64,000 nucleotides of DNA. Origin: Leucoraja erinacea. Its lineage: Eukaryota. The stretch spans positions 16,678,001-16,742,000 of the forward strand of contig NC_073380.1 in assembly GCF_028641065.1 (NCBI RefSeq), written 5' to 3'. Numbering within the stretch: position 1 is the first letter of the stretch; every line of letters begins with the position of its first letter. Below the pieces are notes generated by a model, which saw only the letters and a list, made by a program, of their open reading frames with translations, searched no databases and was not told the origin of the DNA. Both the position numbers and the translations under genes were made by a program. Positions 20,501 through 61,900 of the stretch are shown here, piece by piece.

Positions 20501-23500
20501 ATTCTGAGGGGGAGGATGGTGAATAGTTAATGGTTAATGGACACGTCTGTACCAACGACATAGAGAGGAAAAATAATCAGGTCCTGCAACCGCCACGGAT
20601 GTAAACTTTGGATTATTTCTGATGCCTGGCACTCCTGAGCAAAGAAATAGGAAGATAGGTGGATATAATATGTGGCTGCAGCAATGGTGGCAGATCATTG
20701 GGACTGTTTTGGGGGGTAGGTGGGATCTGTGCAAGTGAAATGCAGATACAAGGAACTGCAGATGAGGGTCCTGCCCCTCCTCTCTTCCCGCTCCCCCACC
20801 CCCCATCACAATCAGTCTGAAGAGGGGTCCCAGCCCGAAACGTCACATATCCATGTTCTCCAGAGATGCTGCCTGACCCGCTGAGTTACTCCAGCACTTT
20901 GTGTCCAAGGCAAATTGGATCCAAAATTGGGTTGATATTAATTGATGAGAGGCAAGGACTATTTATATGATTGGAAGTCTGTAAACAGTGGTACCCGTGC
21001 CCTTACTGTTTTCCATCCACATTTATGACCTAGATTTTAATGCAGGATTTGTAAATTTGCAAATGACACACAAATGAATTACAAGCAGGATAGTCTCGGA
21101 TTACAGAAAGATATTATAGGATGGTAAATTGGGCAAAGCAATAGCAGATGGAATTTAACCCTAATGAGTGGGAAGACAGTCATTTTGGAAGGTCAAATAA
21201 GGGTAAAGAATGAAGGTAAGGATAACAAGGTATGGAGGGCACATGGGGAAGAAATTCTTCACTCAGATTAACACTACAGAGATTCTCACAATAGTTATAA
21301 TGTATCTAGTAGAAGACTTGATATAAAACTATAATCTAGGTGCTGGTAATTGAGATTAATCCAGATGGGTCTGAAGGAGCACAGCCAGTCAGAAAGCATC
21401 TGTTGAGGGAAATCGACAGTCAGTATTTCAGGTCATGGATTGAAAGATTAGTATAAAGAAGCAAGGGACTGGGGTGGGCGCTAAAACTGGATAGATACAT
21501 TCAGGTGAGGAAGGGTCGGTTGGTGGATAGAGTCATGTGGGGGAGGGCATGGATGGCAACAGCTTGTACAACAGTCAAGAACCTTAAAGCTAAATAAAAC
21601 AATGTAGTCCACTTAACTGACAACCCATTTCCCCCATAACATGAATTCCCTCCATCAACAGCACACTGCTTCGGCACATGTACACAATGCAGTTCTTGCC
21701 ACAGAAACCTCTTTAGCATCTCCCAATTACACAAGCAGTAACGCTGAGGAAATCCACACATGCATGTTCCCCTCCCCTCCAAATCACAGAGCATCCTGAC
21801 TTCAAAATATAATGTCATTCTTTCATTATTGCTTGGTTTCCTGGAGTTCACATCCTGAAAATGCCGTGGAAATATCATCCTGCAAGAACTGCAGCAGTCT
21901 TGCAGTGATGTTTAAGGCTGCAGGTCACCTTCTCAAGGCTCATTGAGACTAATCAATAAATGATGACTTTGTCCACATTTCAATATTGGAATAAAGAATA
22001 ATTTTCGGCTCACAATCATGCAGGCAGCACAGACACAAAGAATACAGATTCTAGGAGAAAGCCATCACTAATTTCTAATAGCAACTATACTCCAAACCGC
22101 GGAGTGTCCCGTCCCAACGTCAGAGCTTCGATCATCCCGACGAGAGGGCCTGTACATGGGGCCGTCTGTAGCGGCGACTACGGAGGGTCAAGGCCCAACA
22201 CGGGTGAACAAAAAGCAGGAAGACTGACTGAATTTTATTGCCTTACATCACAGTGATCACTGTGGTGGATGTTTATGTTAAGTTCTATCGTGAATTGTGT
22301 TCTTTTAATTGCATGGCTGCATGGTAACTCAAACATCACTGTACCTTAATTGGTGTATGTGACAATAAATGTGAACTTGAACACAGGAAACAAGTGCAAA
22401 CTTGCTCACTTGACCCAGTTCCTATGGACAAACTTGTGCTGGACAATGTGAAAAATAGTAACACACTACATCGTTGCTTAGCAAAAAACAACAATTGCCA
22501 CGATAAACAACTCATTGGAAGATTGTTGGCAACAGTGCTAAGATAATTTCTTCAGTAAATTGGAGGCAAAAGAAGGAGAAAATCTACACCTGATGTCTAG
22601 ATTATAACAATCTAACATCGTGCACTATACACTATAAATGGATTTCTTACCATTTATAGAGTATTTTAAATTACATGATATTAATTTTATATTTGATCTG
22701 TGTATCAATTGCCAAACGAGCACAATCTTACTGGTAAAATCATTGCAACAACATCCAGAAACAACTAAAGTTAAATAAAATTGTGAAATCACACCAAAGC
22801 CTCTACTTCCAATGAAGGCTTAGGAATTCGGCATGTCCCCAATAACCCTCAAGAACGTCTCCATATGTGCTGTAGAAAGCATTTATCGGGATGCATCACA
22901 GCATGATTTGGGAACAGCTCCATCCAAGACGGCAAGAAACTACAAAAAATTGTGGACATAGCCCAGACCATCACACAAACTAACCTCCCTTAATGCATCG
23001 ACTCCATCTACACATCAAGCTGCCTTGGCAAGGTCCACCATCATAATCAAGGAGCAGTCTCATCCCGTCACTACCCCTTCTCTGCTCTCCCATCAGGCAA
23101 GAGGTACCGAAGTTTGAAAACGCCTACCTCCAGATTAAGGGACAGTTTCTTCCCAGCTATTATCAGGCAACTGAAACTGTTGTTTCACCAACTAGAGAAC
23201 CATCTGTCCTCCTATCTATCTTATTGGAGACTTTCAAACTATCTTTAATTGTATTTTACTAGAGTTTATGTTGCACTAAATGTTATACCCTTTATCCTGT
23301 ATCTGTTCACTGTGGACAACCTGATTGAAATCATGTATATTCTTTACTGGACAGCACACAACAAAAAGCTTTTCACTGTACCTTTGCAACCGTGACAATA
23401 ATAAACTAAGCTAAACTAAATAAACTAAACTATGTACAAGAACAAAAAGTCATTGGGTTCAAAGAGGATGTCTGCACTTTGCTAATCTGAAATGCCACCT

Positions 23501-26500
23501 AGTCATCATGTCAGTTTTCCTTAATCCTATCTCTAATGACATTGTATTGTATTGCATTCAAATTTATTGTCATTGTCTCAATTTGAGACAACAAAATGAA
23601 TTTCCCTTACAGGCAGTATCATAAAAAAAAAAATCCAAAAAATAAATAAATAAAAAATAAATGATAAACATATTAAAAATAAAATTGAAATTGAATTAAA
23701 AAAAAGCACAAACACAGAAAGTCCACGACACAACATAACGTAAATGGCACCAAGGTGAGGATGGCACTATAGTCCAGCCAGCCTCCCCTCCGTGTTCATC
23801 CGTGCTTATGTCACCATTTGTTTGTATGGGCCTTTTTTTCCATCTTGTCATTAATTGGAACCATCCTCACATAATTTCCTTATATTTTGTTTTTCTCTTT
23901 AAACTGGTTCCATTAGAGCTTCGTTCGCATGAAGCAATTTTAACCATCAAATTATCTCAACTTTTTGATTTTCCAATGAAAACCAGTGTTCAGAAAATAA
24001 TTTTAATACTATAAAGGCTTAATTATATACCATACAAGTGCAGTAATTATGTGATTAGATAACCAACTAAATAAATACATTCTTCGTCTAAATGAAGAAT
24101 GACCAACACTGCTTTTAATTTACTCCCTTGTTAATGTTGCTCAATGAAAACATTGTAAAGAAAAAAGTTGCATTTATACTGTGTTTTTCACTACCTTTGG
24201 ACATGCCAAAGCACTTTATAGCAAATAATGCACATTGGTGTGGCCACCATTGTCATTTTGAAACTCCACGCAAAAATCTCCCACCAACTCCTTTATTGAT
24301 TAAAGTTAATAACGCAATGACTTCCGGCTTTATAAATTACTGTAAAGGAGAGAAAATAAAGTATTGATTTAATAAATCTAAAATATGCTATTCCAGAGAT
24401 CATTGCACTTCCTCAGCATTGCATGGGAGCATCAAACCAGCATTTGTTTTCAAGAATATGCAGTAGGATGTGAATCTTCTAACTCTGATTCAAGAGTAAC
24501 ACCAATTGAGCCATGGCTGACAGCACAAAACTACATCACCCTCTTCAAAAATGGGTTGGATATTAAACTGTGAAATATTTGGAATGTTTTGTGACCTAAA
24601 GGTACTATGTAAATTGCAAATTATAGTTACTGCAAATAGTAGATAACTATAAGCATTTTATTTTCAGTATTAACACTTGAACATCGGATCTGATTAGTAC
24701 TCACTTTATTCTAGGACAATTCAATCCCAATGCGGTTATGGAAGCATCAGTAATATTTCCACATCCAGATACACAGAGAAATTGGAGTTTGTGGCAACCT
24801 CTGCAAACACTTACTAATCCTTCATCTGTGATTTGCTACGACAACAAACAAAATTTACAGATTATTAACTTCCACAAAATATCACATTGATTACAAATCA
24901 AATAGATGCTCAGAATTTGTGGATAATCACATGGAGGCCACATCAGGTATTAATTTTTATCACAAACAGTGATGCCTCAAGGAAGGGTTTCCTCCCAAAA
25001 GGTCATGGAGTCTCTGGCAACTTGTTTCATGCCCCCACCACCCTTTGTGTCAAAACGTTACCCCCTCAGATTCCTATTAAATCTTTTTCCCTTCACCTTA
25101 AACCCATGTCCTCTGGTTCTTGATTTCCCCTTCTCTGGACAAGAGCCTCTGTGCATCTACCCGATCTATTCCTCTCATGATTTTATACACCTCTGTAAGA
25201 TCATCCCTCATCCTCCTGCACTCCAAGGAATAGAGCCCCAGCCTACTCAACCTCTCTCTGTAGCTCAGACCCACTAGTCCTGGCAACTAGTAGTGGTAGG
25301 CTAGAAAATAAGAAATGGTCAGTTCTCAAGCAAACAATCCCAATCTCTCCACACTTACGCAGCACCTGGCTGCTGAGTAGGTGGGGGTGTGAACAAAAAT
25401 ACTTGATTGATTTTGGATATCCATTTCTTTGGAAACTGTAACATGCTCATTTGGTGGTCCTTCATATTCTGTGGTCCAAATAGAGAAGCCAAGACCCAGG
25501 AAAAATTAATGACATTTCACACACAAGGTAATCAATGAATGGCATAATAACTAATTTCAGGTTCTGGACATTCCTGCTTTCAAAGTGTAAAATACATCAA
25601 TAAAAGTATTGTGCAAAGAATATTCTCAAAAATCCATTATTGATTTCTGCTCCAAATAACAGCGTCTCCTTAGAATTACTTGAGTTTGTCAGTTAGTGAA
25701 GGATAATTGGATTCATTGGAAATGCATCATGCTCATCATGTCACATGAACAGATTTCATAGAGCTGTGTTCATTGCAGACTCAAGTGCAGAAAGTTGTGG
25801 TTCATGATTCCAGAGCACTTCCTGGTGGGTTTATTGGCACAAATTTCAGGCAAAATCATAATTACGGACAATGATGAGTACTTTATGTAATACATTACAC
25901 ATTTATGAAATCACCAAACATCGATTAAAGATGCTTCAGCAGTGGGAGCACAATCGCCAAATAAAATCGATCAATATAATCTGGTCAAAAAGAATTAAAT
26001 AATCAAACAATATTTTTTTTAACATCAAGAGATTAGAGTGGGTCCTTTAGAGATTAGACATTCCATTGAACTCCAAGGGAGCAAATTTTTGTATATAGTA
26101 ATTATCATTCCCAGTTTCAGAACTTCCCCTTAAAGGAAACTAATTAGTAAATTAGAATAGCAAATGGAAAAGAAAATTGAGAATGCTAACTATACACAGA
26201 AACATGGGCGGAAATCCTGGGGTGGGGGGGGGGAAGGGATACGGCCCTCCCATGGTTTGAGAGGTGGGGGACAACCCACCCCATGTTTTGTAATCCGGAT
26301 TTTGAAATTTGGTGAAAAAAAATTGATTAAAAACGCTGTTTACCATGAGACAGTGGGGGTGTCACTGTTAACCGCTTGTTAAATGTCCCTACCAACATCG
26401 TATTAACACGATGTGTCACCAATTGCGTTTTGACCTTCAAGTATTACTGAAGGTATTCACGGAGAATTTCTTAAAGTGGTGGATGGGAAAGATTTAAAGG

Positions 26501-29500
26501 GTATCGGATTTAAATGGGTCAGGTCATTAAGGGCTCCGGTCGAAATTGGGTTTCCTGGCTGGCTTGCAGGTAGGTCCCTCATTCACGGTCACTCATGTTA
26601 TTTAGTATTTTTTTCCATCTTTCTCTCTCTCTCTTTCCCCCCTCCAAGGTTGGTTCTTCTGTTTGCCTTTATTTGCTTCAGTTTTGTTTAAGGTGTTATT
26701 TATCACATTGTAGCTTTTGAAAGATTCAAGCGGGTATCGGGTACTTTCTAAGGGCTGAATCGGCCAGTTTGCGGGGCCTTTCACCGCCCGGCACGGCTTA
26801 AAATCAAACTGCTGCATCAAGGCAATCGAGGCTCGCGATGTTGAAGCTGGCCGATTTTAAGCCGCGCTGGGCGATGAAAGGCCCTGCGAACGGGCCGATT
26901 CAAGCCCCACGATTCGGAGCGACGAAGCTGCTGTTGCTGGAGTTCGGAGTCGGTCATNNNNNNNNNNNNNNNNNNNNNNNNNNNNNNNNNNNNNNNNNNN
27001 NNNNNNNNNNNNNNNNNNNNNNNNNNNNNNNNNNNNNNNNNNNNNNNNNNNNNNNNNNNNNNNNNNNNNNNNNNNNNNNNNNNNNNNNNNNNNNNNNNNN
27101 NNNNNNNNNNNNNAATTGTGACCCCCCCCCCAATTGTGTCCCTCCCATGTTTTTATAGCGATTTCCGTCCCTGCACAGAAATATAAAATAAGATAACAAC
27201 CACGCTGAAATGGATTTTAGTTATTAAAAGAACAAAACCGTTCGATTTTAAAGTAGGCTACATCGTTCTCAACTCTCAATAGTATTTCCAAAGCAAACTA
27301 CCATCTCTCTTATCCTTGCTGGTCACTTTCATGCCTGTACATTGAAATGTTTTTAAAAAAAAAGTTATGGTTCAGAAGCTGGAGCAGTGGTGTACTGAGC
27401 TGAGAGACTAAATGAGTACGGGTGAATTGTTTACTTTTAAAAAAGGAATGCTTTTACATTAAGTTTTAGAACATTATGATAGTTTAAATGTTTTTAATAA
27501 TTTTTATGATCATATGTACAGTTTTTAAATATCTCTTGAGTAGCAGTAACAGGGATGTAGGATTTAAGTTTGGCTACACCAGCAGGAACTCTGGTTAACC
27601 AGTCTAAGTTATAGAATTATGCGGCCCAGAAGCAAGACCTCAGACCTAACTCCTCCATGTTGATCGGGTTGCCTTTTTGAGCCAGATTCATTTTCCTTCA
27701 TTTGGCCCATATCCTTCTACATCTTTCTTATCCATGTACCTGCCACAATATCTAGTTAAAAGGTATGTATACCTTTCTCTACATTTCCTCCGGCATACAT
27801 CAACGACCCAGTGTGTGAAAAAATAGTTCCCCATGGCAACATCCTTGTGAATCTTTTCACACCCTCTCTGGATTAATCTCATCCTTAAAAACAAACTGCA
27901 ACATAACCAGAACTGCTCACAATATTCCAAGTACAGTTTCACCAACGTCTTGTACATTGGCAACATGATGTCCGACTAATGAAGGCAAGCATGCTATATG
28001 CTTTCTTGATCATCCTGCCTAACTGTATTATAATTTTCATGGACCTCTGTTCTACAACACTCCTCAGGGATCAGCTATTCACTGAATATGTCCCACACTA
28101 TGTTAACTTCCCAAATTGTATCATACTGCACTTGTACAAGTTATATTCTATTTGACATTTCTTTATTCAATTTCCCAGCTGATCTTGATCCTATTGTAAT
28201 CATAGATAACATTCTTCATTGTCCGCTATACCACCAGTTTTGGTGTCATCTGCAAACTTACTAATCATGCCAACTACATTCTCATCAAATCATTAATATA
28301 GATGACAAACAACAGGGGAACCAGCACTGATCCCTGCAACACATCACTGATCACAAGCCTCCAATCTAAGAAACAATCCTTCACTACAGCCTATGTCTCC
28401 TTCCACCATATATTCTGTATTCAACTGGCTAGCTCACTCTGGATGCCATGTGATCCAACCTTTCAGATCAGCCTACCATGTGAGACTCATATACGGTCTT
28501 GCTAAAGTCCACGTGGCCAACATCTACTGCCCTATCATTGACAATCCTCTTCGTTAACTTCTGGAAAAAAGTTAAATTCATAAATATGATTACCCACACT
28601 CAGCCATGCTAACTATATCAACTTTCATTTACAAATGCAGGTAGATTCTGTCTCTCAGGATCGCCACCAGTAATGTTTCTGCCACTGTTAAGCTCACAGA
28701 CTTGGCTTTGCAGCTTTTCTTAAATAAAATTCCAACATTAACCACCCTCTGGTCTTCCTGTACTTCCCTGTGGTTACCAAAGATACAAATATTTATGCTA
28801 GGACCCCAGTAATTTCTCCCCTGCTTCCCACAAAATCCTAGGATAAACTTATCCACCTTCACATGCTGCAAGACCATCCACACCATTTCTTTCATTATGT
28901 GGATACATTTCAGTGCACTACTATTCAATTCCCTGAACTCAGTAGCTTCCATGACTTTTCCCACAGTAAATACAGGCAAGACATGTTCACTTAACACCTC
29001 ACCCATCTGCCATAGCTCCACACATAAATGAGCACACTGATCTTTAAGAAGACCTATTCTCTCAGATCTCAGCTTGGCGGATACAGTAGGTACAATGAAA
29101 TTCCTTGTTAGCATGAAGCTCAGAGAATAAACATTATATAGTAATGATATACCCGAAACATCACACATTCCTTCTATCCAGAGATACTGCCTGAGTTACT
29201 CCAGTATTTTGGTGTAAACCAGCATCTGCAGCTCCTTCCTACACACGATTATAGTGTAATCTGAAGTAATACAAAATCAAAATACCGAAGTACAATAACA
29301 TAGTAACCAAGTGACTTCATGATTTTTCTGGCCTGTGACCAGTGGAGTGCCGCAGCGGACGGTGCTGGGTCCACTACGTTTGTTTAAAAAACCCAATTTG
29401 GATGACAATGTAGTTTACATTGTTAATACATTTGCAGATAACACCAGATTTGATGGCTTAGTAGACAATGAAGAAGGATATCTTAGTTTACAACATGATC

Positions 29501-32500: not shown

Positions 32501-35500
32501 TAGACAGAAACAAGTACGTTACCCAAAGTTTCCTGGGTAAAGTACAGCATCCCTACTGACTACTGAGAACCTCTTGACCATGACAAAATGCTTAAGGAAA
32601 GCCGTGCTCAAGGAGATATTGAGAACCTTCATTGAAAATAAATTGGAAGCACACAGAAGTCCTGGATAAGTAATAAAAGGAGCACACCACCTCATCAATT
32701 ACCCACCTGCCTGGCTGACCAATCAGCCTCATCGTTACCTATATACAGAAGAATCTACAGTGCCCATATTGGCCTCATTAACCGCCTCATACCTCACAGA
32801 ACCAGATTTGAAAAGTTATCCTCCGTACCAAGGCCCGTGTTGCGGGGTTGAAGAGCTCCTGGAGCGGGGCCTGACATCACTGCCCCGCGCAGCTGGAATG
32901 GCCGCGGGACTTTGCGAGCGCACGCCGGGGGCTCTAACATCAAGACCCGGTGTGCGACCTCGCACCACCCGGCGTGGCTTCAATGGCCGTGGGACAATCG
33001 CCATCGCCAGCCGGGGGCTTTGACTTTGACTCTGACATCAGGGGGGGGGAGAGTGCAGTGGAGAGATAAGTTTTTTTGGCCTTCCATCACAGCTATGTGA
33101 TGGATGTTTATGTAAAATGTAATTATGTTGTGTCTGGGGTCTATTTGTGTGTAATGTATGGCTGCAGAAACGGCATTTCGTTTGTGGACCTCCAGGGGTC
33201 CAAATGACAATTAAATTGACTCTTGACTCTTGACTTGACTTCTCAAGACCTCACTCCCACCAATTCTACTTTAGTAGAGATATTGTTTTTTATTGATTTT
33301 GTCAGTAACAAATATATATTTAGTTTTTGATGTAAAAAATTAAGTAAAATGAAGAGTAGTGATTATATTATAAAACGGTTTCCATAACTGACATCAATAT
33401 TAATTAGAATCTTTGCAGTCAATCGGTCAGACACAAACACGAGATCTAAAATTACTTAACAAAGAAAAATGTAACTAAAAATTTGAATAAACCAGTACTC
33501 ACTGAACATGCTTGCAAATTAAGTGTCATTAGTTCTGGACAGTGGATCTGAATGTGTTTCAGCGAGTCATCATCGAGCTGTTGGAGAAACATACCCATTT
33601 TACTCTCTTTGCAACAATAGATCACAATCAGATTACAACAGTGATCTAGGCAAGTCTGAATGGAAGCACGATAATGGATGTTACTTTCGTCATGTAGTTA
33701 ATAATGATCTTTGCAACAGGAACCACAGGTCGTTCTGCTTTAACGTGTATTGAGCAATTCAAAAACATTATTTGTATTACGAGGGTCTAATTGGGTAAAA
33801 TTTGATTTTGATTGGGAACCAGTCATAGATTCAGAGTCATCTAGCAAGGATACCGGCCTTCAGCCAATCCATCCATGCGGACCAAGATGCCACATTTAAG
33901 TTAGTCCATTTTCCCGTGACTAACCTATATTGCGCTCAACATTTCCTATCCATGTACGCTCGAAGGTATTTTAAATGTAGTTACTGTACTTGCCCCAACT
34001 ACTTCAACTGGAAGCACATTTTATCAACTCATATATACAAGTGCTTGTAATGCTGCTGCAAGTAAGAATTTCATTGTTCTGTTGTCAGTACATACGACAA
34101 TTAAAGTCTCTTGACTTGACTCGTTCACTATAATCACTACTCTGTGTGAAAATGTTGCCCTCGGGTTCCCATTATATTTCCCCTCTCTGCACCTTAACCT
34201 ATGTCCTCCAGTTCTTGACTCCCCTTCCCTGCGCGTTCACCCTATCTATTTCTCTCATGATTTTATACACCTCCTCAGCCTCCTTGCGCCAAGAAATGAA
34301 GTCATAGCATGCCAACCACTCCCTGAAGCTCAGGTCCTTGACTCCTGGCAACTTCCTCTCTACACTCTTGCCAGCTAAATGGCAACTTTCCTATTGCAGG
34401 GTGAGCAAAACAGAACACATTACTCCAAGGGCAGCCTCACTTACTATGCATAATGTCACAACCTCTATGCTCAATTCCCCAACTGATGAAGGCTAGCTTG
34501 TCAACACACGTCTGCACCGCCTATCTACCTGCAACGTCACTTTCAGGGAAGTATGTGCAGTTCTTGTACTCCTGGAAAAAACACTTAAAAATTACTTTGT
34601 AAATTTTCTTATTAGAACACAGCTGATATTTTCACCATGGGTTGCCACAGATATTGACAAGCAGTCTCTCTGTGTAATGATGTACTCTTAAACAGTGTAA
34701 CATGCAGCCTTTAGTATTTTTTAAACTAACCATTTTTAGCTTGCAGTAACAAAAATAAACTTATAGCTATTAGAAATACCTTTATTTTTGAAAATCCTGC
34801 AAGGAATTATTATGAGACTGAAACGCCCCTTTTTTACTCATTAACACAATTGTATCCTTTATCTGTGCACTGTGAACTGCTCGATTGTTAATCACGTATA
34901 GTCTTTTATTTGACTGGATAGCAGCCAAACAAAAGCTCTTCACTGTGCCTTGGTACATTATTATTTATTAATAATAAACGACACTAAGCCAAAACTAAAC
35001 TTCCTCACTAAAACTTGCTCAGTGGAACTGAAATCTGCTCAGACCCACCATAGCTCCAAATATTAGATCTTATTTTAAATATGGAGACACAATGGGAAGA
35101 CAAATGTGTGTTCTCAATGTCAGAGAAAGTTCAGATAAGGTGTGGCACCAAGGGATTTAAAATTAAAAAAATGGAAATTGGAATCAGCAAGAAAGCAGAT
35201 TTGTTGATAGTATCACACCATGCACAAATGAAGATGGTAGTGTTTATTAAGTTATCCTTAGGCCATCACTGCAGGTTCCTGCAATGAATTATCTTCAGTT
35301 GCTTTATCAATGATCTTTTTTCTCTATTATAAGCTAGCACTTCTCCATAAAGCATTTTCATCAATATCCTGGGAAGAGAGAGAGAGACAGGATTATTATC
35401 ATTGACCACAAACTCTATTGGACTAACTCAGTAAAATGTGTACTTGTGCAGGTCAGAGGCTAGGCATTCCATGGTAATGGAGTTGACTTCTTGGTGCACA

Positions 35501-38500
35501 AAGCAGTTCCCCTAACTGCAAGATATGCATCAGCTATTTGATGGAAGACTCTACACTTGCCTGGATGGATACAGCTGCTTCAACATTCAAAGTACTCAAC
35601 ACCAGGTATCATCATATTCAACTTGATTCTACAACTGGCACACCTTGGCTGCATTAATCACTAGTTTAGTTTAATTTAGAGGCACAGCATGAAAGAGGCC
35701 CTTCAGCCCACCGAGTCACCGCCGACTAGCAATCAACTGTGCACTAGTTCTATCCTCTACAATAGGGACAATTTCCAAGTCAATTAATCTACCAACCTAC
35801 ATGTCTTTAGAATGTGGGAGGAAACTGGAGCATCTAGAGAAAACCTTGCGACCTGGTGTTGAGATAACAACCTTCTCTCAATTTCAGCAAGACAAAGGAG
35901 ATAGTGATTGACGTCAGGAAGCAAAGCGGTACACATATTGACGGCATTGAAGTAGAGATGGTTGAAAGCTTCAAATTCTTAAGTGTAAATTTCACCAACA
36001 ACTTCTCCTGGATCACCCATATTGAAGCAATGGCCAAGAAAGCACACCAACACCTCTACTTCCTGAGAAGGCTTAGGAAGTTCGGCATGTCCCCAACAAC
36101 TCTCACCAACTTCTACAGATGTGCCGTAGAAAGCATTTTATTGGGACGCATCACAGCATGTTTGGGACCATGTGCAGGGAGGAACTGCAGATGCTGGTTT
36201 ACACCGAAGATAGACACAAAAGGTTGGAGTAACTCAGTGGGTCATGCAGCATCTCAGGAGAAAAGGAATAGCTGAGATTTCGGGGTGAGATCCTTATTCA
36301 GACTGAGAGTCAGGGGAAAGGGAAACAAGAGATATAGACGGTACCTAGGATAAATTAATGGAAGATATGTGGAGCCCTCTACTAACACTCTCTGCTGCAT
36401 AGCGAGCTGGTCGTCACTCTCTACAACTTCTCCTTTGACTCCTCCCATATCCCCCAAATCAAAGGCAATTGCATGGGCCTCTTTGTAAGGTATGTTGAAC
36501 AATCCCCGTTCCAGGTGTACACTGGCCCTATCCCCAACCTCTATCTCACTACATTGACAACTGCATTGGGGCTACCTCCTGCACCCATGCAGAACTCATG
36601 GACTTTAACTTCACTGCTAATTTCCATCCTGCACTCAAAATTAGTTGGACCATTTCCAACACCTCCCTCCCCTTTTTTGATCTCACCATCTCCATCACGG
36701 GAGATAGACTATCGACAGACATCTATCGGAGTGGCGGCGCGGCTCTGGCCGCAGCGGCTTACCGGCAGTCCCGTTGTTTTGTGTTTTTTATGTTGTTTAT
36801 TTTGTTTTGGTTAGTCTAGTTTTTTAGTTTTAGTTTGTGTTTTTGGGGGTGGGGGTTGAAACGGGGTTTGCAGTCTCTCACTGCGGGGGAATACGACCTT
36901 TTTGTCGTATTCCCCTTCTCTGCCTCCGTCTGCGATGAGGCGTAATGGAGCTGACGACCTCGAGGCTCCGGAGGCAGAGCCCGCCAGGACTCGCAATGAG
37001 CTCGCTCCCGTGAGGGCGGCAAGCCCGTGGGTGGAACGAGGCTCGCGTCGGAGCGGCCGAGCTCGGGGAGGTGCGGCGCTCGCAGCCCGAGGGAGGTTCG
37101 GCGCCCAAGTCGGGGTGGCCCGGTCCGGGGGAGAAGCGACGCCCAAGTCGGTGCGGCCCGGTCCGGGGAAGAAGTGACGCCCATGTCCGGGGCAGCCCAG
37201 CCCAAGGCTGAAGAGGGCGCAGTACTCACGTGAGGGTGGCTGGGACGGTGTTCTGGCGGTGGTGGCCTGAGTCCGGGGTTCGGCCGCGGGCCAGCGGCTG
37301 CGTCTGCAGAACTGGTGGGCGGCAGCTTCAACCACCCCGGGCGGTGTTTGAGCCGCGGGACTGTTTTTAACATCGTCCGGGGAAGTATCGCCCCAGCGCA
37401 GAGGGAGAAGAGGAGGGAAGAGACTGCAGATCTAAGACTTTTACCTCCATCACAGTGAGAAGATGCTGGGTAGACTCACTGTGGTGGATGTTAATATGTG
37501 TTTATTATTGTTTTATTGTATTGTATAATATGTATGACTGCTGCAATTTACTTCAGACTTCGGTCTGAATGACAATAAAAGGCTATCTATCTATCTATTA
37601 CAAACCTTATGATTCCCACATCTATCTAGACTTCCCCCACAACCACAGGAGATGCAACATCTGTCTCTATACCTCCACCCTTCACTCTGTCCAGGCACCC
37701 CAACAGTCCTTTCAGGTTAGGCAGACATTGACTTGCACCTCCTCCAACCTCATCTACTGTATCCGCTGTTGCAGGTGTAAAATCCTATATATCGGCGAGG
37801 ACCAAGCGCAGGCTGGGCGTTCGTTCCGATGAACACCTTCGCTGTCTGCCTCGGTCTACGTGAAATCCCAGTTGCCAAACACTGGTTTGGGAATAGCTCC
37901 ATTCAAGACCACAAGAAATTGCAGACAATCGTGGACGCAGGCCAAACCATCACACATACCAACCTCCCTTCCATTTACTTCTCATGTTGCCTCGGAAAGG
38001 AAACCCCCAGCATAATGAAGGATGAGTCACACCCTGGCCACTCCCTCTTCTCCCCTCTCCCATCGTGCAAAAGGTATAAAACAATGAAAAATCACACCTC
38101 CAAATTCAGGCAGTTTCTTCCCAGCTATTATCAGGCAACTGAACCGTCCCACAAACAACTAGAGAGCTATCCTGTGCTACTATCAACCTCATTGGAGGTC
38201 CTTGGACTATCTTTGATTGGACTAAGCATTATTTCCTTTATCATGTCTCTGTACACTGTGAATGGCTCCATTGTAATCAAGCATTGCCTTTCCTCTGACT
38301 GGTTTGCCCTGAACTCAAACCCCATGCGGTCACAGGGAACACATACAAACTCTGTACAGACAGCACCCTTAGTCAGGATTGAACCTGGGTCTCTGGCGCT
38401 GTAAAGCCAATTCTTGGAGGTTGTCCTGTAAAGTGGCAGCGATAGAGTTGCTGCCTTAAGGGCCTGTCCCACATTCCCAAGTTACTCACGAATTCTCCCG

Positions 38501-39733: not shown

Positions 39734-42700
39734 ACCATGCGGCCACAGGGGACCCCCGAGACCAGGATCAAACCCAGGCCAATGGGACCGCGAGGTAACA
39801 TCTCCACCAGCGAGAAGTAAACCAACATCGCTGGAGGAAAACTAAGTGTCCTGGACTGAGGTCAGGATGTGGCACTGTAAGGTAGGAACTTTACCGCAGC
39901 GCCACTGTGCCGCCCCATGGTATTGTGTATTTTGTGTCCTTTACTCTTTATTGTGTAGGGTATGTTTATTGAATGTTTACTGGTAATATACGGTTCATAT
40001 TAAACCCCTCATTGGTTTATAGCAGACGTTTGGTAATAACGGACACCATCACCCCCAGTGCGGACTGTTATTGCGATGGTTTACTATAGTGAACAATCTC
40101 CAAGCTGCACTCTATCTTATTGGCATTACACGATAATTAAAAGTGTGCAATGTTTTACAACATGGTTGTCCAACAATGTCTGTATCAAAGAAAGGCTCGA
40201 GAAGAATTACAGAAGAATAACTGTTATTCAACAGCCTCGCAGACTCCAAATTGCAAGTAAAATGAACCCTGCCTTACAGGCGTTTTTCCAATCATCTCAG
40301 CTTCTGGGATTGATCTTTGAGAATAAACAGGGCAGGAGCAGAATATTTGTTCTCCTCATTCCTGCTCTGCCATTCAACATCCAAGTTAATCTGCCACCTC
40401 AATGCTGCTTTCTTAACCATAGCATCAGATAAATAAAAACAAGTGTGATGTAGAAGAGAAAACTTGACAATATTTTAACAATCAGCACAGGAGCACCTCA
40501 AGGCTGCGAGCTCAGTCCCCTGCTGTACTCACTCTATACTCATGACTATGTAGCCGGACATGGTGCGAACTCCATCATCAAGTTCGCCGACGACACCACT
40601 GTTGTGGGATGTATCACTGATGGGGATGAGTCAGAGTATAGAAGTGAATCGACCGATTGACCAAATGGTGCCAGCACAATAACCTGGCTCTCAACACCAG
40701 CAAAACCAAGGAACTGATTGTGAACTTCGGAAGGGGTAGGATAGGGACCCACATTCCCATTTATATAGATGGTGGAAATGGTCAAGAACTTCAAATTCCT
40801 GGGCGTGCATATTTCAGAAGATCTCTCCTGGTCCCATAACACTGATGCAATCATAAAGAAATCATCAGCACCTCTACTTCCTGAGAAGATTACGGAGAGT
40901 CGGTAGAAGTTACAGGAGCCTGAAATCTACAAAATCCAAGTTCAGGAACAACGACCTCCCCACAGCCATCAGACTATTAAACACAACTTCAAACAAACTC
41001 TGAACTATAACAGCCTATTGCACTTTATCGGTTTATTTATGTGTATGTATATATATATTCTATGGTATATGGACACACTGATCTGATCTGTATTTATGCC
41101 TACAATATTCTGTTGTGCTGCAGCAAGCAAGAATTCTATTGTCCTCTCTGGGACACATGACAATAAACTATCTTGACACTTGACTTGACTTGAGATCTGT
41201 GGTGTTGTAGTTTGTTTTTCTGCATGGTGGTTACCTATAAATAAGATCATAAGTGATAGGAACAGAATTAAGCCATTCAGTCCATCAAGTCTACTCTGCC
41301 ATTCAATCATGGCTGATCTATCTCTCCCTCCTAATCCCATTCTCCTGCCTTCTCCCCATAACCTCTGGCACCCATACTAATCAAGAATCTATCTATCTCT
41401 GCCTTAAATATATCTATTGGCTGCCTCCACAGCCTTCTGTGGCAAAGAAGTCCATAGATTCACCACACTCTGACTAAAGAAATTCCTCCTCAAATCCTTC
41501 CCAAAAGAAACTCCTTTAATTCTGAGGCTAAGACCTCTAGTCCTAGACTCCTCCACTAAATAGGCTCAACAGTTGGAAAGAGTGGTTTCATCCATAACAT
41601 AATCTGTTATTGATTGAAGTACTGTTTCTGATTGTTGATGATTCAACTACCCCAGTGGCTCTGATGCTGATTAGTAGGATAATCCTGAGGTAGTGGTTGA
41701 ATGATGACTTCTTTCCCCTTAAAATATTTCAAACATTTTTGAGCAACCTTTTAAAGCACTATAAATTGTTCCTAAAGAGACTAATCAAAATGAGAATAAC
41801 AAAATTGGCCACTGAATAGAAATTATATTAATTTTAAAGTGTCATCAATGACAAAACTTGAGAATGAGTACATTGGGATGATCAACTTTGTAGACGGAAT
41901 AAAGAAAAATAGATGGTCAAAGTTACACAGAAAATTGAAACACTTGTCTAAATTACCACAAATATTGAAAGAAACAAGGCACGTGTTAATGAGAAAGAAT
42001 GAATATGACAAACATCTTAAGGGAAGAGAGCGGATGCAAACACTGGAAGTGATACTAGCATGACAGCGTTAGAGGAATCAAGTGACTTTCCAGGGTTTGT
42101 ACAAGATTCACAAAATGTACAGTTCTTTAGTCATAGCCTCTCATGATATGGCAATGCATTCGTTTGTTTATGAAGTTTGAATGGATGGATGAGGAAGAAC
42201 ATAATTTATAGTAAAATAATTGGTGAATGAAAATTACCAACCTGAGTGCACCCTCTTAAAAACATGGCCTTCAGACCACTGCATCCTCCCACTAGAGCCT
42301 CTATCCCATCCTTGGTCACCTGATCACACCAGGAAATGTTTAAATGCTCAAGGTTTCGATTGCCCTCACTGAAAGGCAAAAACAGATGCAGTTCAGCAAA
42401 GGTTTCATATATTTTATAAACTTAAAAGTTAATTGATGCCTCAAATTAAGTTATTAAACCATACAATATGTTTCTTAAAATCACTTCTTGACCACTTTGC
42501 GATGTTAGCAATGCTTTAAACAATAAATTCTATTGATGGCTTCTGACAACATCAAAACACAATTGTATTGCTACCATCTGGTGACAAAAATAGGATTTTG
42601 TCTCCTTGGTTTTACATGTTGCTAACAATATGAGGTAAATCTGTATTGTATGAAACTGCTAATAAATGTTTTGTTTTGTGACAAAATAGCACCCTTAGTC

Positions 42701-45006: not shown

Positions 45007-46932
45007 ACCGCTTGTGTTAATCTATTACCTGCCCCTCCTCTAGCTTTCTTCTGATCTCCAATCAGTCTGAAGAAGAGTCCTGACCCGAAATGTCACCCAT
45101 CCAGGTTCTCCAGGGTTGCTGCCTGATCTGCTGAGTTCCTCCAGCACTTTGTCTTTTTTTCGTACATTTTTCAATTAACTGTTTGGGATTGAATTTATGT
45201 GGCAAATGAAAGAACATTATTTCTTCCAGTGATAAGAGTAAATGTAGATGCTGTTGAAAATATTGTAAAAAATGTTGATTAAAAAAAATGCTCCATAATA
45301 ACAAGGGTCTGAAGAAGGATTTTGGCCCGAAACATTGCCTATCTCCTTCACTCCATATATGCTGCTGCACCCGCTGAGTTTCTCCAGCATTTTCGTGTAC
45401 CTCCATAATAACAATGTGATTATAACCATAAGCAATTTTCTTATATTGGTCTTTGGGTTCATATTCCGTAAAATAACTTTTTATGTTTCAGTGACACAAA
45501 AATAATAAGCTGGAGGGAATTGTTAAGATCTAAACCACAATTGAATGAATTCGATTAAAGGAACATTTTGACAAAGAACATTAGAAACAGATTAGAAAAA
45601 AAGATGTGCAGAAGAGTCAGTCTTACAGCACAGAAACAGGCTCTTCAGCCCAAAGTGTTTAAGCCAACCATCAAATACTCTTCGGCACAACACCCATTTC
45701 TTAGCATTTGCTCCATAGTCTTCTATGCCGTGGCAATTTAAGAGCTCGTCTAGGGACATTACAGGTATAAGTGCATGAGAATACCATCCACTTGGGTAGT
45801 TTGTTTCACATTCCAACCATGGGTGGAAATACCGGGGGTGGAGGGCACAAAGGGGACACACCACCCTCATTTATTGAGAGGTGGGAACAATCCCCCCCCA
45901 CGTTTTGTAATCCGTATTTTGAAATTCGGTGAAAAAAAAAAAATGTTAAAAATCTCCGCTATCTGTGGCAGTGCGGGTGGGACTGATGATTGAGGGCGCC
46001 GATTGGATGAGAGAGACGGCAGTCAGCAGGCAGGGTGGGGGGGGGGGGACATGATGATTTAGCGCGATGATTGGAGGAGGGGGGTGTAAGGGGGTGAGAA
46101 GTAAGGGGGTGGGACTGAGGATAGAGCGCTGTGATTGGAGGAGGGAGACGTCCGGGTGAAGCAAAGATCACAGAGCGGAGCTTGAATCGGCCCGTTCGCG
46201 GGGGACTTTCACCCGGAGCGGCTTAAAATCAGCCGCGGGATCTTCCACCGACACGCGGTCAAATTGCTGCATCGAGGCGATCGAGGCTCCCGATGTTGAA
46301 GCCCCCGCCGGGCGATGGAAGATCTCGTGGCCAATATAAGCTGCGCCGGGCGATGATAGGCCCTGTGAACCGGCCGATCGAAGTCCCACGATTCGGAGCG
46401 GATGAAGCTTCTGTTGCTGGAGTTCAGAGTCGGTCCCCAACCAGGTCAGCCCCCGATGTTACCGTCAACAGGGCCCACGGCTGAAGCCTCGCACGTGTGT
46501 GTGTGCGCGCATGCGCACCAAGAAATTGTGTCCCTCCCCCATGTTTTGATACCAATTTCCACCCCCGATTCCAACCACCCTCTAGGTTAAAAAAACCCTC
46601 AGGCTCTCTCTAAATTTCTACTGTCTTACCTAAACTCTCTGCTTTTAAACACCTCTTCACAATTAATCAGCATTATCCTGAATCCGAAAACTAGTCAGAG
46701 TATGAGAGATAATCAGTATGAAACAAGTCCCTCGGCCCATCACTTCTGTGCTGACCAAGTTGGCATTTTGGGCTTGGCCCGTTTGCCTGCATTTGGCCCA
46801 CAGCTCTCTAAACTTTTCATACATCTGTCCAAATGCCTTTTAAAAGTTGTCATTATATCTGCTATAGCTTCGCCTGGGAACTCTTTCCTGAAATTGACTA
46901 TCATCTGGGAGGGGGGGGGGGGGGGGGGTATG

Positions 46933-58900: not shown

Positions 58901-61900
58901 TCATTCTCGGTGCTGCAATAGAACTCTGGCACTTCATTATGGATATCAAACTTTTCAATATACCCCCTGAGCGACACCGATTCCTTTCAATAATGAAGGG
59001 TTATCTAATCAATCTGGTATTATCAAAGATTTACAGTAGAGTTTGGCTGTATGCTGAGTATACAAGTATAACTTATCCAATAAAGTCAAAATTTTAAATA
59101 CTCATTTATCTTCAGAATAACATGCACCTGAAGGATAAAAAGACCTTTATCAGCTAAGCTTCGTGATTATTTTTTCTTCAGAGATGGTTAAACACATGAT
59201 TAGAAAAGTCTAAATTTACTAGTTGATGTCAAAGTTTTTCATTAATTTGAATAGAATATAAAATTGATGAGTCTGCAGACAGTTGTTTACTGCATCAAAA
59301 TCAAAGGCCAACGATCGAATACTGAAACAAGAGCTTGTGGACAAAGATGATTAATGGGCACTTTAAATGCCAGCATTTAATTATGTAAAAGACATGCTCA
59401 TTATGGTTTTAAAATTATGCAGGTATGGGAAAACATTAAAATAAACTATACAACCATCATTTATCAGCTTCATTAGTATTAAATAAAATGTTCCAATCTG
59501 TCAGTGAGATAGCATTGGATATTTGTGGGGGGAAAAAAGCAATTTGTTGTTCCAGGACTTAAGAAAATGAGCACAAAACAAGCTCCATCTTCAATTCAAT
59601 TTATTGACACTTCCACGCTGACCAAAAGGTTAGCCTTTTTTTGATTAAATAAAATCATTTTTTCCTACTAAACATCTATTGTTGATTTATTCATAAGTAT
59701 AATGCAAAAGCAAATCTATTAATCACACTGCTTGTAAATTGACTCCCCATTAGCCGATTGCATTTCACCCTTTCATCGTACGATGCATTGCTTTGTTGTG
59801 TCCAAACTCCTTGCCCAAGTTTGGTCCATGATTTCAAATAGCCTGCCCAACAATTTGTGTCTATAGAACAATGGATTAATAGTAAGTAGCCATCTTGTCA
59901 AATGACGAATAAAAGTAATTAGTTCAGCTACTAAAAGTAATTAGTAATTTCTGGCTGTAAGGAGGACAAAGAGTGCACAGCCAATGTTATTCCTCTCTTC
60001 CAAACCTAACTTGCAGTATGACAAATCCCTCCAGTAGGTTCCAATGTGGTGGCAAACAGTACTGTGTCCCTTGATTGTTATTTATAGCTTTCACTTGGAG
60101 AACAGATATTTTCACAAGTATAACATTTGTTCCTTTTCCAGATTCAAATGCTGTGAGCAGCAACTGTTCTTGAAACGGATGCAAAACAAATGCAGGTAGT
60201 TAATAATGTGAAACAGCAGTGCTAGGTTTAAGCATCCCAAATCATTGCCTTTCAAAGATTACTCCGAACGCTGTACCTATGGTATTTTTTCTCTCAGCAA
60301 ACTCAACCCAAGCATTAACCTGCCATGGCTGTTGTCTCCAAATCCACATTTGATGTTTCTGCTTGGTTTTGTGGCTTCCTTCCCATTTTGCAAACACATT
60401 TACGAACTAGATAAAATAAGGATGCAGAGAGAGAGAGAATATAAAAAAGTAGGAAGTGACTGAGGAATATGGGAGGAAACTATTCGAGCAAAAGTAGAAA
60501 TATTAAGAAAATTACGGAGATCTGCCTAATCTTCCTAAAAGATTCAAAATAAGAACTATGTTTAATTCCGATGGCACAAAAATCAAATTGTAATTGTAAT
60601 CAAATGCAAGACATTGGACAGCTCAATAAAATTATAGTGGTTCAATGAATATTAGCCATAACAGTTGTTATAACAAAAGCGATGCAAGATTTGTTAGAGT
60701 TCTTAGAAAAATAACTCCTTCAGCCTAATTTTCCGGAAGTGGCGGCGCTGTTCTGCAGCTGCAGCTCGCCTGCAGTCCGTTTGTCTTCTCTTTTTTTTTG
60801 TTTTCTTTTTGTCCTGTTTTAGTTAATTTTAGTTAATTTAGGTTGTGTATGTGTGGGGGGTGGGAGAAACGTGTTTTTTGTCTCTTCCTTCGGGGGGATG
60901 CGACCTTTTCTTAGAAACATAGAAATTAGGTGCAGGAGTAGGCCATTCGGCCCTTCGAGCCTGCACCGCCATTCAATATGATCGTGGCTGATCATCCAAC
61001 TCAGTATCCCGTACCTGCCTTCTCTCCATACCCCCTGATCCCCTTAGCCACAAGGGCCACATCTAACTCCCTCTTAAATATAGCCAATATAGTCGTATCC
61101 CCCGTCTCCATCTGCGCTGAGGCCTATTGGCGGAGCTGGGGGCCTCCAACTAGGACCGACATCGAGGCTTTGGAGGCAGAGCCAGGAATTTCCAACGCAA
61201 GGCTGGCCGACTTCGGGGCTGTGGTGGCGGTGACCCGACTTCCGACCCGACTTCGGAGGCTCGGCCGCGGGCCCAGTGGATGACATCGTCGGGAGCTCGC
61301 AGGTCCCAGGTTGGTGACCTGTTTTCCGGAGCTCCCGCAATGACAGCTTCGTCCGCTGGACTGGAGGGTGGCAGCTTCGGCAGCTTCGACCGCTCTGGGC
61401 CGCGGAGTTTGAACTGGCCCGTTCGAGGAGCTCGGATGCGGCCGTTGGACTTACCATCACCTGGCGGGGTCACAACATCGGAAGCCTGGATCGCCTCAAC
61501 GGAGAGGGAGAACAAGGAGGGAAGTGACAAAGACTTAAGACTTTTGCCTTCCATCACAGTGAGGAGGACCTGGTGAACTCACTGTGATGTATGTTAAATC
61601 TGTGTTTATTGTGTGTTTTGTTATTTTATTCTATGTTATGACTGCAAGGCACGAAATTTCGTTCAGACTGAAAAGTCTGAATGACAATAAAGGATATTTT
61701 ACTTTACTTTAATTTGGTAGTTTAAATAACTGATGACTCCACACTTTGAATGATTCAAGGTAATACAATCTAACACACACCATTATCATTGAACACGTTT
61801 GAACAATGGCAAATGCTCACTTTTAGCAAAAAACAGACTCCTGGAGGAAGTCAGCAGGTCAGGCACCACCTGTCAATGAAATGGTCCGCGACATTTTGGG

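What the first reader, a model, noticed from the sequence alone, without database searches (positions are those of the whole stretch)
36727..37592. GC-rich non-coding retroposon family with covarying RNA hairpins and a cUUCGg to GAAA tetraloop swap
Seen: five related copies (22097-22382, 32825-33240, 36727-37592, 60733-61709, 62905-63096), with no tRNA head and no shared ORF. The two long copies start with (c)ggaagtggcggcgc-like sequence, then a T-rich tract. Hairpin A is GGGGAATACGAC/GTCGTATTCCCC (36886-36915) versus GGGGGATGCGAC/GTCGTATCCCCC in the other copy (A-U to G-C compensation plus a G-U wobble). Hairpin B, ccatcacag.../...ctgtggtgg, is kept in all five copies with loops of very different length and becomes ccctcacag/ctgtgtgggg near 62935. 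The terminal hairpin is TTCAGAC-TTCG-GTCTGAA (37552-37569) versus TTCAGACT-GAAA-AGTCTGAA (61662-61681), with a different stem sequence near 33185. All end in tgacaat(a/t)aa plus a microsatellite, like the Rex1/Babar 3' ends at 17243 and about 41160. Established: cUUCGg and GNRA are the two most stable tetraloop classes, and stringent LINEs recognise 3' stem-loops. Inference: this is a structured, non-autonomous RNA mobilised by Rex1/Babar machinery with an internal promoter (ETS-like CCGGAAGT start). It may be poorly described.
Basis: partly seen in the sequence, partly recalled or inferred. Interest (0 to 1): 0.7.

Follow-up and report, generated by a model that had tools for sequence, protein, structure and literature searches.

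The report
Structured protein-free hitch-hikers of Rex1
This is one copy of a very abundant group of 0.8-1.0 kb jumping elements that encode no shared protein, keep four predicted RNA helices while their sequence drifts, and likely borrow the copying enzyme of Rex1 retrotransposons, a pairing I found no paper on.

Summary
The element is real (36727-37598), but the five window copies belong to five different families (A-E), not one. Each family has full-length 0.8-0.9 kb members with a sharp 5' end; a 600-kb blind sample suggests about 80,000 copies genome-wide. There is no tRNA head, Pol III box, shared ORF or TSD. The terminal stem base matches intact autonomous Rex1 LINEs, so Rex1 mobilisation is likely. 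The head resembles the Rex1 5' end, where the ORF starts a few bases in, but 0 of 105 heads keep that ATG; one L2-type copy has a similar head, so the donor is unsettled. The tetraloop story fails: other families use AAUU, CCAG, AUCU and longer loops. The ETS motif is in 1 of 19 families. A young sister family ends in an L2-type tail. RNA reads show no 5' start. Verdict: new variant of ORF-less LINE-dependent retroposons; this scan has reported it many times on other DNA; Repbase/Dfam could not be checked.

The parts
36727..37598 (+). Full-length family A copy, inserted into a Penelope-like relic (label recalled) without TSD; host frame reads TDIY|YKP across the junction
36727..36776 (+). GC-rich head resembling Rex1 5' ends; GTG at 36731-36733 where Rex1 has its start ATG; presumed internal Pol II promoter (untested)
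36777..36863 (+). U-rich tract with several T>=4 runs, G run, GAAAC
36864..36878 (+). 5' arm of long-range helix P1
36886..36915 (+). Hairpin A
36917..37412 (+). GC-rich, CpG-rich middle, variable between families, predicted to be closed by a second long-range helix
37419..37433 (+). 3' arm of long-range helix P1
37446..37488 (+). Hairpin B (most sequence-conserved part; loop 4-25 nt across families)
37547..37579 (+). Terminal stem-loop whose base is shared with autonomous Rex1 3' ends
37580..37598 (+). (CTAT)n tail, microhomologous to the target site
60733..61709 (+). Full-length family B copy with 177-nt insertion at 60912-61088 in the loop of hairpin A
32833..33240 (+). 5'-truncated family C copy (young family)
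22090..22382 (+). 5'-truncated family D copy
62890..63096 (+). 5'-truncated family E copy
23562..23807 (-). Sixth, degenerate 3' fragment of another family
40500..41190 (+). Broken 3' fragment of a Rex1-like LINE with the same terminal stem base (not part of the element; partner type)

Best explanation
These are copies of a superfamily of ORF-less 0.8-1.0 kb retroposons that are likely copied by Rex1 reverse transcriptase, which would bind a conserved 3' stem-loop of a predicted folded RNA likely made by RNA polymerase II from a LINE-like head. Shown: unit length, shared architecture, covarying helices, shared stem base with intact Rex1, no TSD, no Pol III boxes. Inferred steps: (1) the head, probably a Rex1 (CR1-group) 5' end whose cap-proximal ATG was lost, starts Pol II transcription; (2) helix P1 closes an exchangeable GC-rich middle next to hairpin A, with hairpin B and the terminal stem outside; (3) Rex1 protein binds the stem base (loop identity irrelevant) and primes target-primed reverse transcription at sites microhomologous to the microsatellite tail; (4) the body survives partner turnover by tail exchange, as in family F with an L2-type tail.
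For: Unit: 26 of 30 top A hits, 22 of 24 C hits, 14 D and 9 E hits are full-length with unrelated flanks, whereas LINE copies are variably 5'-truncated. Abundance: 22 hairpin-B-bearing 3' ends in 599,900 blindly sampled bases; 23 clusters at 80% identity among 125 near-full copies. Structure: own-family arms pair better than cross-family arms in 17 families: P1 z -5.3, A -4.5, B -4.3, terminal -7.0, against z -2.0 to +1.0 for 12 control arm pairs; 9 non-bulged terminal stems: 98.9% cells paired, 5 of 10 pairs with two-sided change, 0/500 shuffles reach the score; fold z -3.6 for the window copy; sense folds better than antisense in 5 of 5 (marginally in D). Partner: intact single-ORF APE-RT-PF09004 elements; 3' 45 nt of A-E score above all 1474 control windows; A/B share 11+11 nt around the loop with one Rex1 family. 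No TSD of 8 nt or more in 43 of 45 copies. Pol III unlikely: 0 of 19 heads have an A+B box pair, 18 of 19 have T>=4 runs in the first 200 nt. Head: A, B, C score above 1000/1000 shuffles and all 1474 windows against six Rex1 starts; 0 of 105 parsed heads have ATG there (GTG 68, TAG 20, GGG 7).
Against: No mobilisation or promoter assay. RNA reads lie on both strands with no 5' start in 7 RNA runs. Head similarity beyond the 8-nt core is modest (z 0.4-3.2), weak for D and E (22 and 5 of 1000 shuffles), and one L2-type copy has a similar head (best match Rex1 13 of 18, L2 copy 4, F module 1, with six Rex1 templates against one L2; family A scores 39 to L2 versus 37 to Rex1). The ATG lies in the part of TISU that PMC2518114 reports as needed for YY1-dependent transcription, so losing it should weaken that promoter. 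Family E keeps a second ATG at +18. The 3' score is partly circular (sequences were trimmed at TGACAATAAA). Permutation tests ignore phylogeny, and arm matching could partly come from template-switch correction. The middle and hairpins A/B have no match in the six Rex1 families.
Confidence: 0.75

Rival explanations
1. Chimeric, SINE-like superfamily: the head and conserved body come from a source other than Rex1 (an L2 5' end or a host GC-rich promoter), and only the tail is Rex1-derived and exchangeable.
For: Young family F shares the body (66% to E over 730 nt) but ends in the tail of a different RT LINE; one L2-type copy has a head-like segment; hairpins A, B and the middle are absent from six Rex1 families; GC-rich-headed SINEs of unknown origin are mentioned in PMC5786205.
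Against: Heads match Rex1 starts at the same +1 position, followed by a T-rich tract in both; 13 of 18 best matches are Rex1; the L2 segment is from a single copy.
Confidence: 0.35
2. No promoter of its own: the RNA is made by read-through from host genes and its 5' end is set by processing (for example self-cleavage) or by where reverse transcription stops.
For: RNA reads on both strands without a 5' start; the YY1-type ATG core is lost; head sequences differ between families.
Against: Sharp, family-specific 5' ends in all six families examined; no Rfam ribozyme match; no conserved ribozyme-like fold at the 5' end in my folds; CpG observed/expected 0.83-1.02.
Confidence: 0.15
3. The elements are just the 3' UTR or 5'-truncated remains of an autonomous LINE.
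For: One locus (L095) has a Rex1 ORF followed by an element body.
Against: That locus is a Rex1 fragment with its own tail nested in the element's U tract; Rex1 3' UTRs read here are 130-300 nt; flanks upstream of full-length copies are unrelated.
Confidence: 0.04
4. The element encodes a helper protein (antisense 219-aa frame in the window copy).
For: 223-aa antisense ATG frame in the family A majority.
Against: 29 of 300 composition-matched shuffles reach that length; 31-231 aa among 31 copies; 34-166 aa in other families; no Pfam match and no homologue among 984 candidates.
Confidence: 0.03

Closest known systems
Bipartite ORF-less non-autonomous LINEs / SIDEs (RIME, NARTc, Bov-A, RTESINE, Vingi and R2 derivatives, PMC5786205 passages; Persaeus from CR1-Zenon and Ag-Sponge, PMC6740152 passages)
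   Same: No ORF, no small-RNA head, LINE-like 5' and 3' ends, probably Pol II, dependent on a partner LINE.
   Different: Partner is Rex1 (word absent from both papers); terminal homology is only about 45 nt per end instead of whole UTRs; about 700 nt of unrelated, structured body; dozens of diverged families; start ATG absent.
Stringent-type SINE/LINE pairs and HCD-SINE superfamilies of sharks (HE1/HER1, SacSINE1, CmiSINE; PMC3747384 and PMC5499810 passages)
   Same: 3' stem-loop shared with partner LINE, microsatellite tail, conserved body with tail switching.
   Different: No tRNA/5S/7SL head, no A/B boxes, early T runs, two to three times longer; body conserved in pairing more than in sequence.
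Autonomous Rex1/Babar LINEs (single ORF, no ORF1; PMC13343379 and PMC6274825 passages)
   Same: Terminal stem base, oligonucleotide tail, no TSD, similar first 45 nt.
   Different: No APE/RT ORF; 0.8-1.0 kb versus 3.1-3.4 kb.
GC-rich-headed SINEs of birds (named in PMC5786205, citing Suh et al. 2016; original not read)
   Same: GC-rich non-tRNA head of unclear origin on a LINE-derived tail.

Membership tests
SINE (Pol III, small-RNA head) | Head derived from tRNA, 5S, 7SL or snRNA | tested here: not met
   ARAGORN 0 genes; no relevant Rfam hit in families A-E
SINE (Pol III, small-RNA head) | Internal A and B boxes, no early T runs | tested here: not met
   0 of 19 box pairs; 18 of 19 with T>=4 runs in first 200 nt (box patterns recalled)
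SINE (Pol III, small-RNA head) | 3' end shared with a partner LINE | tested here: met
   family F with the second LINE
Bipartite non-autonomous LINE / SIDE | No protein-coding ORF | tested here: met
Bipartite non-autonomous LINE / SIDE | 3' end homologous to the partner LINE | tested here: met
Bipartite non-autonomous LINE / SIDE | 5' end homologous to the same partner LINE | tested here: inconclusive
   Significant for A, B, C against Rex1 but short, modest beyond the core and matched about as well by one L2-type copy
Bipartite non-autonomous LINE / SIDE | Whole element explained by internal deletion of the partner | tested here: not met
   About 700 nt of body has no match in six full-length Rex1 families
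Bipartite non-autonomous LINE / SIDE | Pol II transcription from its own 5' end | tested here: inconclusive
   No 5' start in 7 RNA runs; short-read libraries, not CAGE
Rex1-mobilised element | Intact partner present and same insertion signature (microsatellite tail, no TSD) | tested here: met
Rex1-mobilised element | Trans-mobilisation by Rex1 protein | not testable with these tools
   needs a cell assay
Catalogued repeat (Repbase/Dfam) | Match to a deposited consensus | not testable with these tools
   no such library on hand; 9 paper searches found no description

The most novel reading that the evidence does not exclude
A third route to LINE parasitism: a Pol II retroposon superfamily that took a LINE's combined promoter/start-codon head (YY1/TISU-like), dropped the ATG so the RNA is transcribed but not translated from the cap, and wrapped an exchangeable GC-rich cargo in a conserved RNA scaffold (P1, hairpins A and B) that works with Rex1 or L2 tails. 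Its dozens of natural variants define the Rex1 recognition element as a stem base independent of the loop.
Probability: 0.35. Interest if true: 0.72.

Novelty: new variant of a known kind. Interest (0 to 1): 0.5.

Why it matters
About 80,000 copies would make this a major, probably unclassified repeat class of this genome, and CpG-rich enough to affect nearby regulation. Rex1 has no described non-autonomous partner in the papers I searched and its RNA recognition is little studied; the families act as a natural mutagenesis series that predicts what Rex1 binds (stem base, not loop) and makes it directly testable. The side observation that autonomous Rex1 ORFs begin a few bases from the 5' end in a TISU-like context offers a testable explanation of how a single-ORF LINE is both transcribed and translated.

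Tried and rejected
Tetraloop-class constraint: rejected. ETS promoter as family trait: rejected, 1 of 19. LINE-UTR origin: L095 is a nested insertion. Antisense ORF: chance. Hammerhead-like reading of GAAAC plus a downstream motif: considered by eye, core not conserved; no Rfam hit. Pairing of hairpin B with 18S rRNA (lead from e1-9269020): no arm of A-E beats shuffles (9-34 of 40 as good); the 18S copy lacks its extreme 3' end and 28S was not tested. RNAalifold on a plain alignment of 17 terminal regions recovered only the 4 basal pairs because bulged and non-bulged stems misalign. First two control pairs were invalid (an empty segment) and were redone. One search used a structure off by one column (44.9% paired); corrected. 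A regex for a repeated module in the middle found little. Metagenome scan: 10 hits, none extends beyond about 40 nt, no head. Run search: no RNA holder listed. Bacterial promoter scan is irrelevant here. L2 5' ends could be read in only one copy.

Full report
OBSERVATION. The window lies in a 2.19-Gb animal genome; its LINE landscape suggests a cartilaginous fish (inference; PMC13343379 passages, report the highest Rex1 coverage in rays). The five copies, however, belong to five families: each retrieves its own set of 84-98% identical genomic hits (first-look candidates 4589, 7125, 2765, 4923, 4553; 40 scored each), while family majority sequences align to one another at 58-75% over parts. Three window copies are 5'-truncated; the copy at 60733 carries a 177-nt insertion in the loop of hairpin A. 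The focal copy (family A) spans 36727-37598 and interrupts a host frame cleanly (TDIY|YKP), with only tail microhomology at the junction (the Penelope-like label is recalled, Pfam gave nothing).

A UNIT, NOT A UTR. 26 of the 30 best A hits start within 2 nt of the same base with unrelated flanks (best hits are biased to full length). Extending the truncated copies gave full-length forms of 798-906 nt for B-E (22 of 24 C, 14 of 25 D and 9 of 25 E loci used). All share one order: GC-rich head, U tract, G run, helix P1 5' arm, hairpin A, GC-rich middle, P1 3' arm, hairpin B, U tract, terminal stem, microsatellite. One locus with a Rex1 ORF upstream of a body proved to be a Rex1 fragment nested in the U tract. 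Profiles run over all loci gave 125 near-full copies in 23 clusters at 80% identity. In 60 blindly chosen 10-kb stretches, 22 of 38 3'-profile hits covered hairpin B: about 37 per Mb, roughly 80,000 copies (Poisson range about 50,000-120,000). Median identity to the family majority is 96% (A, C) and 89-91% (B, D, E). DNA contigs of a second species label cover family C.

NO CODING, NO POL III. No tRNA, no relevant Rfam family, no A+B box pair in 19 heads and T>=4 runs in the first 200 nt of 18 of 19. The antisense 219-aa frame is within chance and not conserved.

STRUCTURE. From the 23 clusters I dropped 5 lacking an intact end and 1 with an insertion, leaving 17. For each helix I compared pairing energy of own-family against cross-family arms after removing row and column effects: P1 z -5.3, hairpin A -4.5, hairpin B -4.3, terminal stem -7.0 (all p 5e-5), while 12 control arm pairs from the same families gave z -2.0 to +1.0. 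In the terminal stem, base-anchored counts in 15 of 17 families show invariant pairs 1, 2 and 5, A-U/G-U at pair 3, and 2-5 pair types at pairs 4 and 6-9; on 9 hand-picked non-bulged stems 98.9% of cells pair and 0 of 500 shuffles reach the covariation score. Loops are free: UUCG, GAAA, CCAG, AAUU, AUCU and 3-8-nt loops, so the tetraloop swap is a two-family coincidence. The P1-enclosed region folds better than shuffles (z -3.6 on 100 shuffles for the window copy; -3.2 to -7.7 on 12 shuffles for majorities) and better as the sense strand. These tests do not model the tree, and template-switch correction of inverted arms may contribute.

PARTNER. The genome holds many intact single-ORF elements with endonuclease, RT and PF09004 domains, matching the description of Rex1 as lacking ORF1 (PMC13343379 passages) with a conserved 3' UTR and oligonucleotide tail (PMC6274825 passages). 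The last 45 nt of A-E score above all 1474 control windows against six Rex1 ends (partly circular, and one Rex1 end was cut short by my parser). A and B share 11 nt on each side of the loop with one Rex1 family. TSDs of 8 nt or more were found in 2 of 45 copies. Stringent 3' recognition by LINEs is established for other clades (PMC3747384 passages), not tested for Rex1 here.

HEAD. The six Rex1 families start with AAGATGGCG or AAATGGCG, and in five of six the ATG, 6-8 nt from the shared 5' end, is in frame with the long ORF. This matches the AAGAUGG context of TISU, a YY1-bound element for transcription and for translation from very short leaders (PMC2518114 passages). The element heads align to these starts (A, B, C above all shuffles and windows; D, E weaker), both are followed by T-rich sequence, and none of 105 parsed heads (20 unparsed) has the ATG. 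Against this: similarity beyond the core is modest; family E keeps a second ATG; the ATG is in the part needed for YY1 function; and a single L2-type copy has a comparable head. I put Rex1 as head donor at about 0.55. The ETS motif is private to family B.

TAIL EXCHANGE. Following a lead from earlier notes, 171 of 217 hairpin-B hits had a Rex1-type end within 260 nt; most of the other 46 are mutated ends, insertions or false hits, but 3 carry a different tail. Two of these define young family F (about 1.0 kb, tails 97-99% alike, 9 of 30 loci full-length), whose last 55 nt match the 3' end of another RT LINE (L2 label recalled from its motifs).

EXPRESSION. Seven RNA runs give reads over the whole element on both strands, with pile-ups at T and A tracts typical of internal priming and no 5' start. 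Inconclusive.

COMPARISON AND NOVELTY. It works like a bipartite ORF-less LINE derivative or SIDE (PMC5786205, lists RTE, Ingi, Vingi, R2; PMC6740152, adds CR1-Zenon), but fails the internal-deletion test because about 700 nt have no Rex1 match. It fails the SINE head tests; known shark SINEs are tRNA-headed (PMC5499810 passages). Nine paper searches found no description; all seven papers were seen as passages only, no supplements, and Repbase/Dfam were unavailable. This scan has noted the same superfamily many times in this and other genomes; those notes are not independent support.

VERDICT. Real; new variant of a known kind; Rex1 mobilisation likely (0.75); interest 0.5.

Noticed in passing
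L217, L220, L223, L225, L228, L234 (oriented 5' ends): Autonomous Rex1 families begin with a TISU/YY1-like motif whose ATG, 6-8 nt from the 5' end, opens the long ORF in five of six families, followed by a hydrophobic stretch.
   Followed up: partly
L306-L335 (family F): Young 1.0-kb member with an L2-type tail; its head holds GCCATCTTGG, the reverse complement of the CCAAGATGGC that starts its 250-nt 3' module, so the two ends could pair.
   Followed up: partly
window 26200-26955 and 45815-46560: Two copies of an element with terminal-inverted-repeat-like ends that carry, in antisense, a fragment of the GC-rich middle (62-72% to several families): possibly a DNA transposon that captured it.
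   Followed up: partly
L242:6824-6704(-), L101:6982-6927(-), L014:3663-3772: Hairpin-B copies ending in further tail types, different from both the Rex1 stem and the family F tail.
   Followed up: no
L095, L023, L115, L144: Frequent nesting: a Rex1 fragment inside an element's U tract, family A inside family C, and elements adjacent to or inside other family members.
   Followed up: partly
window 36386-36726 and 37599-37860: Host of the focal copy is a broken RT/endonuclease relic (Penelope-like by recall), split in frame by the insertion.
   Followed up: partly
window 29884(-) and 62116(-): Other short repeats ending in TGACAATAAA plus microsatellite without hairpin B; may be further Rex1-tailed elements.
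   Followed up: no
window 49611-50819: 402-codon open frame on the + strand, not examined.
   Followed up: no
L119:1885 (run X21): 245 reads continue into poly(A) a few bases after the AATTAA of family C; polyadenylation or internal priming cannot be told apart.
   Followed up: no
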